DNA from: an uncultured archaeon
GTDB lineage: Archaea; Asgardarchaeota; Lokiarchaeia; Sigyniarchaeales; SOKP01
Length of the DNA: 64,000 nt
Assembly: GCA_964486045.1 (NCBI GenBank)
Contig: CAZALK010000022.1
Location: forward strand, 1-64,000
Direction of reading: 5' to 3'
Positions 20,130 through 25,120 of the stretch are shown here, in pieces. Both the position numbers and the translations under genes were made by a program. The notes beneath the pieces were generated by a model, which saw nothing but the letters and a program-made list of their open reading frames with translations, had not been told where the DNA came from and ran no database searches. How positions within the stretch are numbered: the first letter of the stretch is position 1; each line of letters begins with the position of its first letter.

Positions 20130-22493
20130 TCATCCGTTTCCAGTTGATATCAAATAGAAGTGGCCATAGAAGTTAGCAAGCGAATCATCGCGTATAATAA
20201 TCATAAATATCTTGTCATCATTCCAATTTTCACACGTTCGTTGCAATGTCCACAGAATTCCACCCTCCCAGGTTATTGCCCATGCATCTTTTGCCGGCGG
20301 GAATATCATTCCAACACAATTTCCATCGATGGTCCATTTCTTGAGCGTATTGATGCCGGTTGACCAAAAATAGCCATCAGCCCAAACTATAGAATTGCCT
20401 AGCGACCAGGTTTTAGCATTGATTTCACCTACCAGATTCCCGGTTTTATTGATTTTATAGAGCGTTTTGCGATCCCTGCTTATCAAATACAGGAATTGAC
20501 CATCAGTTGTCATGCCCATGGTTCCACCCTTATTCTTGTAAGGTATATCGAAGGATGCATAAATTTCGATTGCGTTTGAGACATTAATCTTGAATTTAAA
20601 GATTTTAAGAAGAGAAAAATCGTTCACCCAAAAGAACTCACCGTCGTATGTCAAGCCCCTCGGGTTCATGAGGTAGTCATTTTTGTAGAAAGTCTTGCTT
20701 TGGGTAATTGGATTTAATTTAACCAAATCTATATACTTTCCCAAACCTGCGGCCCCAATCTTGAATCGCCATAGAGATCCATTTATATATTCCAATGTCC
20801 AGCCAAATGATAAATCTTTCCCAATTCGAGTTTCAACCTCTCTCGTTAGATCAACCTCATCGTAGATATACTGGTATTGATCTGCAGTGCTTCCTGGTAT
20901 ATATGGTAAAACATGTTTCTTTGGATTGGGAAAAAGTAAAAGCGGTACCCATCCCGGGTTGAGCATGATTTCTTGAAATGTAGCATTGACCGTACTTCCG
21001 AAAGACCAGGGATCAATGTGGGGATAATTGGAAAATGAATTGTTTATAATCGATATAATAGAATCTCCGCTTCCAGTCAATGCATAATGCATGTAGTCAG
21101 TAAAATAATTGTCTATGATGGACACATTACTTTTTTCGATGTGGATAGAAAAGAAACCACCCAAGAAGATATTGGATTGGATTGTTACGTCGTAATTAAA
21201 CTGTTCTAACGCAATGTCATGGTAGGAGTTATTATATAACAGGTTCCATCCATAGAACGGACTGGATCTTTCAGAATACAAGCCCTCGGAATTGCACCAC
21301 CTGATGATAGAATAGCTGACGTTCACTTTGGAATCAAATTGAACGATTCCTAGTTCACCGAATTCAACGATGACGTATCTAAACACGCTGGTATTCGTGT
21401 TTCGGCATGTAATACTTCCCCAATCTCCATTTATTGGATTTTGTGCATCGGACGTGAACCATATTTGTGCTTGTGATGTTCCTATTGCATTCACAGTTCC
21501 ACCGCTCACGATCAAGTAAACCTTGACGGGATACTTGTAGCCCCGATAATGTTTGAATTTCATGACGGTCTCAGGTTCTATTGTGAGCGTTACACCCTTG
21601 GGGACAACAACCGTTCCTACAACATGAATCTCTCCCGTCCAAATTGTGTTCTGCGAAAGCTGGCCTTGGACAGTTTGAACATTGCCTTGACCAATGGAAA
21701 TACTGTCTTGAAAGGAGGGAACATTGTCTGATGTCATATCAGGCTTAATAAAGAATGGGAAAATCAGCCCGGATAAGCTGATGATTAATGTCAACACAAA
21801 TATAGTTGAATTTTTTCTTGCGGATATGACTTTTACCCCCGACTGTTCATTTCTGAGTTTTCTCGATAAGAAATATGCAACTAAAACGATCGAACAGACT
21901 AAAATTCCGATAGACAGACCGGGTATTTTTTGTGCGTCTTGTCCACCACCATTAGGCTCTAAAGACCATTCGACACGGTCGAAGAATGCATTTTCTATAA
22001 CCCGGTTGAGTTTTCCTGTATGGTCGTAATACAACGAAGTGTTTCTTGCTTCCGTTTCAGCATAGAGAAAAAAACCATCGGGGTAAGTAGTAACGGTGAA
22101 CAAATCATACCTGTCCCAAACATCGAATTTATCACCAGATTTCAACGTCACAGGAATCCACAAAATGGTGTTAAATATTTTTCCGTTTTCAGGATTCCAT
22201 TCAATTGTACTGTTTATCTCTAAATACGTGGTTTTTATGACTATAGATTCGCTCCTGTTGTATTCAGTCTGTAGTTGTAACCATGAATCATTGTGTGGGA
22301 GAACTGTAAATTTCACAGTTCCGGAATATTTATTCTCGAGCTCAACTCCATTCACGTAAAAATACCAATTATCTCCAGAACCAGGCATGTATTGAGCAGA
22401 TATGGCCAAGTTAGCATGTGTAAGGGGCAATCCAATTATTGCACAAATAAAAATGAAAAACAAGATTTGATAGGATTTCAAAGTACTAACCAT
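20130..22493 (-). CDS. membrane-anchored surface protein with parallel beta-helix and beta-propeller domains
   Basis: Signal peptide, internal IPG-TM-basic segment and second TM, VVVPKGVTLTIEP beta-helix start, PRGLTYDGEFFWV-type propeller repeats. Confidence 0.7.
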   Translation of the reverse strand: MVSTLKSYQILFFIFICAIIGLPLTHANLAISAQYMPGSGDNWYFYVNGVELENKYSGTVKFTVLPHNDSWLQLQTEYNRSESIVIKTTYLEINSTIEWNPENGKIFNTILWIPVTLKSGDKFDVWDRYDLFTVTTYPDGFFLYAETEARNTSLYYDHTGKLNRVIENAFFDRVEWSLEPNGGGQDAQKIPGLSIGILVCSIVLVAYFLSRKLRNEQSGVKVISARKNSTIFVLTLIISLSGLIFPFFIKPDMTSDNVPSFQDSISIGQGNVQTVQGQLSQNTIWTGEIHVVGTVVVPKGVTLTIEPETVMKFKHYRGYKYPVKVYLIVSGGTVNAIGTSQAQIWFTSDAQNPINGDWGSITCRNTNTSVFRYVIVEFGELGIVQFDSKVNVSYSIIRWCNSEGLYSERSSPFYGWNLLYNNSYHDIALEQFNYDVTIQSNIFLGGFFSIHIEKSNVSIIDNYFTDYMHYALTGSGDSIISIINNSFSNYPHIDPWSFGSTVNATFQEIMLNPGWVPLLLFPNPKKHVLPYIPGSTADQYQYIYDEVDLTREVETRIGKDLSFGWTLEYINGSLWRFKIGAAGLGKYIDLVKLNPITQSKTFYKNDYLMNPRGLTYDGEFFWVNDFSLLKIFKFKINVSNAIEIYASFDIPYKNKGGTMGMTTDGQFLYLISRDRKTLYKINKTGNLVGEINAKTWSLGNSIVWADGYFWSTGINTLKKWTIDGNCVGMIFPPAKDAWAITWEGGILWTLQRTCENWNDDKIFMIIIRDDSLANFYGHFYLISTGNG

Positions 22494-22709: not shown

Positions 22710-25120
22710 TTAAGTTCTACACATTCTTTTAAGTAAAGTTGGATCCACTATTTCTTTCGGTTTCCAACCTCTTTCTTTGAGGTATTCCTGTATTTCAGTT
22801 TTCATGTTAATAGGAATGTCTGCTTCAAGGCGAATGAATTTATCTAAATCGTTTGGAAACTGAACTCCTTTATATTTCCGTTCTAAATCAACCCAGTGGG
22901 ATAGTTTTATCATACGGCCTTTTGAATTGTCGGCAGGACGTATCACGAGTTTTGCCACTAAGCAGATGGCTTGTTCAATACTTTCAGCAGGAGTTAAAAG
23001 ATGCTCTGGTCCGGGACCTACAATGTGACCTTCGGTTCCATCTCGGGCATTGTAGACTTTCCATGTACTTTCATCATCCGCGCGACTAAGATACATACGA
23101 CGATACTCGGCACCATGTGGACCAATTACTGCTGGGATACCTAATCCGTTAGCCATACTTGCTATACTAGCTGCCTTTTGAGAATATGCGCCCCAAGCCA
23201 CACCTACTGCACCAAGACGATTCAAAATATAGTCTGCGATTTCTTCAAAATTGCCTCGTAGTGGTCTTCTCGCAAATATATTAGCAACTTTAATTGCTGC
23301 ACCCGTTATCCACGCGTCGGCGACACAGCTTCCAACGTTAACCAAGCCTCCACGATCGAAATCACCTGGAAATCTTTCATACAGAGTTTTACCTTCATCG
23401 TCCTTTACTAGACCTATGTCCATAGCCGCGCAACCGGAGACGCAAACTATATAATTTCGGATTAAAAATTCTTCTGCCATAGTATAGAGTTCTCGAATAC
23501 TGTGTGCATAATTTGAACATCCAATCAATGCAATAATGCCAGGGATCTCCCCAAGTACGATAGGGGCACCTACATTTCGAATTTCTGTGTCTAGAATAGG
23601 TCCGCGTCCCGATCTACATTTGTATCTTTCAGTTTTAATGTATTCACTTGATGCATACATAATTAAGGTTAAAGGAGAGACGTCTTTCATACAATCAGCC
23701 TCACATCTTCCACACGCTAAACACTCATCAAAAAGACTCGAGAGTAGAGTAAAATCCCCATCTTTTGCCAGACCTACAGCTTCAACAAGGGGTAAATCGT
23801 TTGGACAGTTTCTCTGACAATTACCACAACCATTACATCTCATTGCCATCTCTATAGAACCTTTCTCATCAGGAACACCACTTTTAGCATTTCTAATCGG
23901 TTTAATTTTTACAGCTGTTTCGGCGGCAACGGCTCCTGCTTTTGTTGGATTTAAAATTAAAACTCCATCTAACCTTCCACTTACTAAATCATCTACGATT
24001 TCATCAACTGGATCACCAGTTCTATCAGGTAGTCCAGCCATAACTTTTTCGTTAGTAGTGATATAAGGAGCACCAACTTTCTTAGCCTCGTCGTAAGTTT
24101 GCAACACTACACACTGTTCATCGACCATCACAACGTCAGCTAAACCAGAACGAATATATGTTAATTGTCTTGAAAATGAACCAATGATTTTTGCTCCATC
24201 GTAATACCTCGTTAAATCGTGAGCAGTGCAGCATATAGCTCCTACATCAAGCTTCTCATCTAAACCTTTCTCTCGTATATAATCAACTAATTCTACACCG
24301 GGTGCAACATTATGTCCAATCATCAAAATTGTTGCCTTGTTTTCAGTATCCATGGTACCCATACCGAGTTCTACAATTGGAGTGTCTGGTTCACCAACAG
24401 GCATCCCATATGCTGCGATTTGAATTGCATCCGAAACTTCCATTCCTATCGCGTCACATAAACCAGCTAAAAAACTTTTAGCTTCATAATCTATATGCGA
24501 ACTTTCTTGTCCGGTGTGACCTGCTGCTAAGAGTTGCGTGATCTGGTAGTTTACTCAGCAAGCGCGAATATCTTGCCAAAGTGTACCCAGTCCATCGCAG
24601 TCTCCAGATCATCCAGACTTTCCGGCTTAATTCCAACGATCAAGCGTGTTAATGGCATCTCTACTGCAATATTATTTCCAAAATTCAATGGAACGTTACC
24701 GTATTTCTCTCGAAGCCAGTGTAGTAAATGGTCGCCGTGCGCGCTGTTTCGAACTAGATTTTTAAACAAAACCTAGTGACACGCAGCGCCTATACAACAA
24801 GCAATCTCTACTATACGTGCATTTTGCGTTTCCATATTGATACCACAAGCCCCTGTTCTACCCTTAGATAAATTGCATTTACCGTATGTGCAAAGACAAC
24901 ACATATCGCAAATCGGCATATATGTTGGTTTGTACCTATCCATGAGTGTGAAAAACCAGTTCCGCAGCGTTGGTATTCCTGGGCGAGGAGTTGGACCCAT
25001 TGGTTCCCATTCAGTCTCATCACCATAAGAAATCCTGCCAGTCGTTAGCTCAAAGCCTTTAATCGTACCCAGCGGTCCCTTGTACTCATCTATTTTTATT
25101 TTTGCGCCTGTCTTTTCCAT
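22710..25120 (-). CDS. cdhA: CO dehydrogenase/acetyl-CoA synthase complex alpha subunit, interrupted by two short introns; join(24778..25120,24581..24747,22710..24548), 782 aa
   Basis: Three ORF pieces are colinear parts of CdhA (CDMCCLCTYGKC..GACG; ACH|SAHGDHLL; HTGQE; GHN; CCTAHD; DEQC; two ferredoxin CxxCxxC motifs; GSC). Removing 30+32 nt gives one uninterrupted frame. Confidence 0.93.
24549..24580 (-). other. 32-nt putative BHB-type mRNA intron 2 of cdhA
   Basis: Insert tttggcaagatattcgcgcttgctgagtaaac contains a stop and shifts the frame. Stem UUGGCAAG/CUUGCUGA. Excision gives DWVH|YQITQLL. Confidence 0.75.
24748..24777 (-). other. 30-nt putative BHB-type mRNA intron 1 of cdhA
   Basis: Insert actaggttttgtttaaaaatctagttcgaa has an in-frame UAG. 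BHB fold GCGCUG-CGUG-[UCA]-stem...UUCG-[AAA]-CAGCGC. Excision gives GAACHSAHGDH. Confidence 0.85.

What the first reader, a model, noticed from the sequence alone, without database searches (positions are those of the whole stretch)
24535..24600. cdhA intron 2: 32-nt frameshifting insert with relaxed BHB/BHL fold
The minus strand reads CUGG GUAC AC^U UUGGCAAG auauucgcg CUUGCUGA GUAA AC^UA CCAG. The intron stem has 8 bp, the central helix has one G-A mismatch and the 3' bulge is 4 nt. The exon helix extends as UGCG/CGCA. Removal gives AMDWVHYQITQLLAAGHTGQE, colinear with the CdhA consensus and in frame with the 577-aa ORF. Since 32 is not a multiple of 3, stop-codon readthrough cannot explain it. 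The relaxed motif predicts a broad-specificity splicing endonuclease. The middle exon is only 167 nt.
Basis: partly seen in the sequence, partly recalled or inferred. Interest (0 to 1): 0.85.

Follow-up and report, generated by a model that had tools for sequence, protein, structure and literature searches.

The report
Second tRNA-type intron in Asgard cdhA
The only carbon-monoxide dehydrogenase (cdhA) gene of this Loki-type Asgard archaeon is broken by a 32-base, frame-shifting insert shaped like a tRNA intron (one of two in the gene), so its messenger RNA very probably has to be cut and re-joined by the tRNA-splicing enzymes, which papers describe inside a coding region for only one other archaeal gene (cbf5).

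Summary
Observation confirmed. A 32-nt insert (24580-24549, minus strand) shifts the frame of the genome's single cdhA. Removing it and a 30-nt insert upstream gives a 782-aa CdhA that keeps all 404 near-invariant residues. Three assemblies of the sample, including a Logan one, carry it. Two other sequences (G022, a JGI contig) share the intron. They fix the cut to the bulge-helix-bulge register, and 6 of 7 differences fall in unpaired positions. Relatives carry 29-34-nt BHB inserts at five more cdhA sites, with compensatory changes. A motif-free census found 12 frame-breaking 29-32-nt inserts in 11 genes of this genome, all BHB-like; the single uL11 gene is split too. The genome encodes two EndA paralogues, one with a Crenarchaea-type loop lysine, and RtcB. 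Best reading (0.88): an EndA/RtcB-spliced mRNA intron with a relaxed motif. Splicing is inferred, as no RNA data were available, and the central helix is not in the minimum-energy fold. Papers found describe this only for cbf5. This scan has already noted the same kind on other Asgard DNA and followed up intron 1 of this gene.

The parts
24549..24580 (-). Intron 2 (the finding): 32 nt, frameshifting, between His170 and Tyr171 codons
   Evidence: shared with G022 and L197
24572..24579 (-). 5' arm of the 8-bp intron stem (pairs with 24562-24555)
   Evidence: pair probabilities 0.43-1.0; invariant in 3 carriers
24555..24562 (-). 3' arm of the intron stem
24583..24586 (-). Exon side of the central helix (GUAC), followed by the 3-nt bulge 24582-24580 with the 5' cut after its second base
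   Evidence: sequence; A-U becomes G-U in G022
24551..24554 (-). Intron side of the central helix (GUAA, G-A mismatch); holds the UAA that ends the frame if only intron 1 is removed; followed by the 4-nt bulge 24550-24547 with the 3' cut after its second base
24587..24599 (-). 5' arm of the exon helix (11 pairs with 24546-24535)
   Evidence: the two genome carriers rank first and second of 67 cdhA sequences for this duplex
24535..24546 (-). 3' arm of the exon helix
24748..24777 (-). Intron 1: 30 nt, in-frame UAG, near-canonical BHB splitting the His115 codon
   Evidence: also in four metagenome contigs at 78-89% protein identity
24778..25120 (-). cdhA exon 1 (N-terminal Cys motif)
   Evidence: TIGR00314 positions 5-107
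24581..24747 (-). cdhA exon 2 (167 nt)
   Evidence: TIGR00314 positions 109-162
22710..24548 (-). cdhA exon 3; contains the 577-aa ORF that gene callers report from 24443
   Evidence: TIGR00314 positions 199-761

Best explanation
The 32-nt insert is an archaeal endonuclease-type (BHB/BHL) intron in a protein-coding pre-mRNA. The cdhA transcript folds locally: an 11-pair exon helix and an 8-bp intron hairpin hold a 7 x 8-nt junction that can adopt a relaxed bulge-helix-bulge shape. A heteromeric (alpha-beta)2 tRNA-splicing endonuclease with a Crenarchaea-type loop lysine cuts after the second base of each bulge (24581/24580 and 24549/24548), and RtcB joins the exons. Both introns must go for the 782-aa CdhA to be made; otherwise translation stops at 115 aa, or at 179 aa if only intron 1 is removed. 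SHOWN: the insert, frame restoration, fold, register, conservation pattern, purifying selection on the exons, presence of the enzyme genes. INFERRED: transcription, cleavage by this EndA, its subunit architecture, ligation by RtcB. The intron is one of a genome-wide class of about 30-nt inserts of this shape.
For: Spliced product is gap-free against intact orthologues and 95% identical to a 782-aa intronless protein. It keeps 404 of 404 near-invariant columns, with 70 synonymous vs 14 non-synonymous codon changes on the G000 branch and dN/dS about 0.07-0.10 over exon 3 against close relatives. cdhA is single copy and cdhB, C, D, E matches are unbroken. The insert is in the Logan and ENA assemblies. 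In three carriers, 6 of 22 unpaired but 1 of 44 paired positions vary, and that change keeps the pair (Fisher p = 0.004, kin not independent). In G022 only the BHB register gives His-Tyr. Five further cdhA sites in relatives hold 29-34-nt BHB inserts; at nt 228, five pairs change on both sides, with 0 of 500 shuffles reaching the covariation score. Census: 12 clean frame-breaking inserts, all 29-32 nt, all with at least 3 of 4 central pairs; 0 of 10 open in-frame inserts pass. uL11 is single copy and split by a 28-nt BHB insert. EndA alpha has Tyr/His/Lys and the loop Lys, the paralogue lacks the His, RtcB is intact. The loop Lys is what allows BHL cleavage (PMC3241643).
Against: No RNA evidence was found. 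The motif is not strict (G-A mismatch, 4-nt bulge), and the central helix has pair probability near 0 in the isolated fold. Intron 2 itself shows no two-sided compensatory change, with only 3 sequences. The G022 copy is damaged or mis-assembled at codons about 70-125, so its support is weaker. Invariance could reflect recent lateral transfer rather than selection.
Confidence: 0.88

Rival explanations
1. cdhA is a pseudogene broken by two small hairpin insertions that are never removed.
For: Most relatives lack the inserts; the G022 copy has other lesions; the central helix is weak.
Against: Single copy with intact partners; no other lesion; all 404 near-invariant residues kept; synonymous changes dominate. 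The same shape and size recur at seven cdhA sites and in 11 other genes including single-copy uL11.
Confidence: 0.04
2. The insert is removed or skipped by another route: a different nuclease/ligase, or ribosomal bypassing of 32 nt as in T4 gene 60.
For: A hairpin follows the take-off codon, and an ACU repeat flanks the insert in G000. The motif is relaxed.
Against: Bypassing needs matched take-off and landing codons and an adjacent stop (own knowledge): here CAC/AAC, in G022 CAT/AAA, with the stop nine codons later. The repeat is absent in G022. All inserts share the cut-after-second-bulge-base register typical of EndA.
Confidence: 0.05
3. CdhA is made as separate pieces, with the 577-aa ORF translated on its own from 24443.
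For: Gene callers report 115-aa and 577-aa products.
Against: Residues 171-205 lie upstream of that ATG yet are conserved in frame, and exon 2 has no start of its own in conserved position. The 577-aa piece lacks the N-terminal Cys motif that binds Fe-S clusters in known CODH structures (own knowledge). Orthologues are single 781-783-aa chains.
Confidence: 0.02
4. Assembly or sequencing artefact.
For: MAG with 7.8% contamination.
Against: Identical in a Logan assembly and an ENA assembly; near-identical insert in two other data sets.
Confidence: 0.01

Closest known systems
cbf5 pre-mRNA intron of Desulfurococcales and Sulfolobales (Watanabe 2002; Yoshinari 2006; Yokobori 2009, PMC2738675)
   Same: Short intron in a coding sequence, often with an unconventional BHB motif, cut between bulge bases 2 and 3 by a hetero-oligomeric EndA; missed or read as a frameshift by annotation.
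   Different: Different gene and phylum. Two introns in one mRNA and seven intron sites in one gene family, patchily distributed, against one ancestral site in cbf5. Part of a class spread over many genes. Splicing is shown for cbf5 and only inferred here.
BHB intron in the 5' UTR of Haloferax volcanii HVO_1309 (PMC7714728)
   Same: An mRNA processed by the tRNA-splicing endonuclease.
   Different: That one lies outside the coding sequence; here removal is needed to restore the reading frame.
Non-canonical tRNA introns of Asgard archaea (PMC11291895; bioRxiv 10.64898/2026.10.13.758758)
   Same: Short, repeatedly gained introns at BHB-forming sites, some relaxed; two EndA paralogues in 44 of 60 genomes.
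   Different: Those papers treat tRNA genes only; text searches showed no mRNA introns in them.

Membership tests
Archaeal endonuclease-type (BHB/BHL) pre-mRNA intron | Removal restores a conserved reading frame | tested here: met
   782 aa, gap-free against orthologues, 404/404 near-invariant residues
Archaeal endonuclease-type (BHB/BHL) pre-mRNA intron | Strict hBHBh': 4-bp central helix between two 3-nt bulges | tested here: not met
   3 pairs plus G-A; 3' bulge 4 nt; central helix not in the minimum-energy fold
Archaeal endonuclease-type (BHB/BHL) pre-mRNA intron | Relaxed BHB/BHL geometry with exon and intron outer helices | tested here: met
   11-pair exon helix, 8-bp stem, 100% of cells paired in 3 carriers vs 24-43% when slid
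Archaeal endonuclease-type (BHB/BHL) pre-mRNA intron | Both junctions fall after the second base of the bulges | tested here: met
   One of four equivalent placements in G000; the only placement giving His-Tyr in G022
Archaeal endonuclease-type (BHB/BHL) pre-mRNA intron | Host encodes a broad-specificity heteromeric EndA | tested here: met
   By sequence only: two paralogues; catalytic one best matches Aeropyrum alpha, with loop K59/R61; the second lacks the catalytic His
Archaeal endonuclease-type (BHB/BHL) pre-mRNA intron | Host encodes an RNA ligase (RtcB) | tested here: met
   One unbroken PF01139 match
Archaeal endonuclease-type (BHB/BHL) pre-mRNA intron | Spliced RNA in vivo and cleavage by EndA | not testable with these tools
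   No RNA-derived contig found
cbf5 intron (orthologous element) | Sits in the catalytic Asp codon of cbf5 | tested here: not met
   Host gene is cdhA, TIGR00314
Group I / group II self-splicing introns | Ribozyme core of hundreds of bases | tested here: not met
   32 nt; no Rfam match at E up to 1
Ribosomal bypassing (T4 gene 60 type) | Matched take-off and landing codons with an adjacent stop | tested here: not met
   CAC/AAC in G000, CAT/AAA in G022; stop nine codons downstream

The most novel reading that the evidence does not exclude
Lokiarchaeia run routine, spliceosome-free mRNA splicing: tens of protein genes per genome, some with several introns, carry about 30-nt EndA-type micro-introns that are gained and lost site by site and move between lineages on short tracts of homologous DNA together with their flanking codons.
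Probability: 0.6. Interest if true: 0.9.

Novelty: new variant of a known kind. Interest (0 to 1): 0.78.

Why it matters
Papers found in eight searches describe endonuclease splicing inside an archaeal coding sequence for cbf5 only. A two-intron mRNA for the central Wood-Ljungdahl enzyme, in a genome with many such genes, would mean that the closest archaeal relatives of eukaryotes already cope with interrupted protein genes using the ancestor of TSEN and RtcB. This bears on how mRNA introns first became tolerable and on non-spliceosomal mRNA splicing in eukaryotes. In practice, gene callers split or truncate these genes (115 + 577 aa here), so metabolic reconstructions and marker sets for Asgard MAGs are affected. 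The 66-nt RNA and two small proteins make a direct in vitro test possible without a culture.

Tried and rejected
Ab initio genome scan for BHB inserts: the first version timed out; the second gave about 427 clusters but as many under shifted controls, so it was discarded and gives no intron count. A loose pattern search of 161 class genomes returned chance matches. Search for RNA-derived, spliced copies: metagenome scan, homolog searches, cluster look-ups and 12 contig look-ups found none. Two leads failed: P0133 comes from a contig that carries introns, and P0158 comes from an allele with different flanking codons, not a half-spliced transcript. The intron-2 pattern in GTDB found only G022 plus seven bacterial matches taken as chance; the 12 introns have no second copy in the genome, so no evidence of an intragenomic mobile family. 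The split EF-2 was not used as an essential-gene argument because an intact EF-2 paralogue exists. The flank-tract test was not significant for the nt-209 intron. Maximum-likelihood tree did not finish; FastTree was used. The sigma-70 promoter scan was uninformative.

Full report
What is there. The minus strand from 25120 to 22710 holds three pieces that match consecutive parts of TIGR00314 cdhA. Two inserts separate them: 30 nt at 24777-24748 with an in-frame UAG, and 32 nt at 24580-24549, the finding. Removing both gives 782 aa; removing only the first gives 179 aa, and removing none or only the second gives 115 aa. The host is inferred to be a Lokiarchaeia (Promethearchaeota) archaeon from the names and sources of its nearest homologues; the tools did not name the genome, and some homologue labels name other Asgard groups.

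Not an artefact, not chance. A Logan assembly (SRR8799001) and an ENA assembly carry both inserts unchanged. Shuffling the insert inside its exons reached the observed motif score in 0.04% of trials; random genome windows pass in 0.15-1.3%. One honest weakness: folding gives the exon helix and the intron stem but leaves the junction as an open 6 x 7 loop; the BHL form is 2.8 kcal/mol higher and its three central pairs have probability near zero in free RNA. The motif is relaxed, not strict.

The gene looks alive. It is the only Prismane-family gene in the genome, and matches for cdhB, cdhC, cdhD and cdhE have no stops. The spliced protein aligns without a gap to intact orthologues, is 95% identical to an intronless 782-aa protein and keeps all 404 near-invariant columns; branch-specific codon changes are 70 synonymous to 14 non-synonymous.

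Other carriers fix the cut. Among 123 family genomes with a match only G022 is also split at this site, and a JGI contig (L197) is a third carrier. In G022 the ACU repeat is absent, and only the placement after the second base of each bulge gives His-Tyr. Across the three, all 22 pairs are kept; six of seven differences are at unpaired positions and the seventh turns A-U into G-U. There is no two-sided change, and G022's cdhA is damaged or chimeric further upstream, so this is support, not proof. Intron 1 recurs in four contigs at 78-89% protein identity, where a changed first base again fixes the BHB register.

A recurring class. Twelve of 50 genus genomes with cdhA are split near the 5' end. 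The inserts map to seven sites (after nt 130, 208, 209, 216, 228, 343, 510), all 29-34 nt, all in the first 170 of 782 codons, all BHB-shaped, also in other genera. At nt 228 five sequences give 96.5% paired cells and five pairs changed on both sides, above all 500 shuffles for covariation (related sequences inflate this). A motif-free census, using 1.6 Mb of a relative as reference (about 291,000 aligned residues), found 12 clean frame-breaking inserts in 11 genes of this genome: all 29-32 nt, all with at least three central pairs, eleven with at least six of eight stem pairs, six passing the strict test whose chance rate is 1.3%. None of ten open in-frame inserts passed. Hosts include an EF-2 paralogue, a Ras-like GTPase, a roadblock protein and an AAA ATPase. 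The single uL11 gene is split by a 28-nt frameshifting insert of the same shape (lead from note e1-5505162). The relative has two such inserts of its own in the same span. The census covers roughly a fifth of the coding capacity and misses introns shared with the reference, so several tens per genome is an extrapolation.

The machinery. Two EndA genes are present. The C7 protein best matches Aeropyrum and Sulfolobus catalytic subunits, has the Tyr, His and Lys of the active site, and has Lys59/Arg61 aligned to Lys44/Arg46 of the Crenarchaea-specific loop. That lysine is needed for correct BHL cleavage (PMC3241643). The C10 protein lacks the His, as expected of a structural subunit. RtcB is intact. 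Many tRNA genes carry introns. The (alpha-beta)2 architecture and activity are inferred.

How the introns spread (inference). Presence is patchy on the CdhA tree, with sisters differing. Carriers share synonymous bases next to the intron that their intronless sisters lack: at nt 510, p about 0.002; at nt 208-228, p 1e-5 to 1e-7; not at nt 209. L197 is 98% identical to this protein yet has introns 209 + 510 rather than 343 + 510. This fits exchange of short DNA tracts between lineages, or selection on flanking codons for the exon helix; the data do not separate the two.

Comparison with what is known. It works like the crenarchaeal cbf5 intron (PMC2738675), called the only other example besides a Haloferax 5' UTR intron in 2020 (PMC7714728). 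It is not that element and does not meet the strict BHB definition; it meets the relaxed one by sequence. Eight paper searches found no report of such introns in Asgard coding sequences; recent Asgard intron papers cover tRNA and group II introns. The library lacks most subscription journals. This scan has already noted the same kind in this and other Asgard genomes and followed up intron 1; those notes are leads, not evidence.

Verdict. Real feature; endonuclease-spliced mRNA intron, confidence 0.88; new variant of a known kind; interest 0.78. What this finding adds is a frameshifting, relaxed-motif intron that excludes readthrough, in a two-intron mRNA of a core metabolic enzyme. RNA-level proof is missing.

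Noticed in passing
G000 C5:238662-238689: Single-copy uL11 gene split by a 28-nt frameshifting BHB insert; removal restores GPTGINIKDVV.
   Followed up: partly
G000 C13:92018-92047: 30-nt BHB insert with a stop inside the P-loop of one of two EF-2 paralogues; the C10 copy is intact.
   Followed up: partly
G000 C1:354340, C1:759271, C2:135224, C3:187694, C7:186752, C17:113110, C20:4176, C21:17229, C23:7094: Nine more 29-32-nt frame-breaking BHB inserts: Ras-like GTPase, AIR-synthase family, molybdopterin oxidoreductase, AAA ATPase, glycosyl-transferase family 3, acyltransferase, amidohydrolase, small zinc finger, roadblock.
   Followed up: partly
12 census introns: Introns lie toward the 5' end of genes (mean relative position 0.28, KS p = 0.027); the first base of the 3' bulge is A in all 12.
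   Followed up: partly
cdhA codons 1-170 across the genus: Synonymous divergence between close relatives is much higher in the intron-bearing 5' part than in codons 225-400, suggesting frequent exchange of this segment.
   Followed up: partly
L084:770-1200 (G022): cdhA carries Cys-motif substitutions, an assembly gap and unrelated DNA at codons about 85-125: damaged gene or chimeric contig.
   Followed up: no
G006, first 1.6 Mb: Two 30-nt BHB inserts absent from G000, in genes whose motifs look like undecaprenyl diphosphate synthase (DG|NRRWA) and CinA (GGL|GPT); names from memory.
   Followed up: no
window 22710-25120: cdhA stands alone; cdhB, C, D and E lie on other contigs (C14, C8, C1/C5).
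   Followed up: partly
G000 C15:137829-137921: A tRNA-Sec gene is predicted by ARAGORN.
   Followed up: no
window 20130-22493 (minus): 787-aa membrane-anchored protein with a weak beta-helix hit, directly downstream of cdhA.
   Followed up: no
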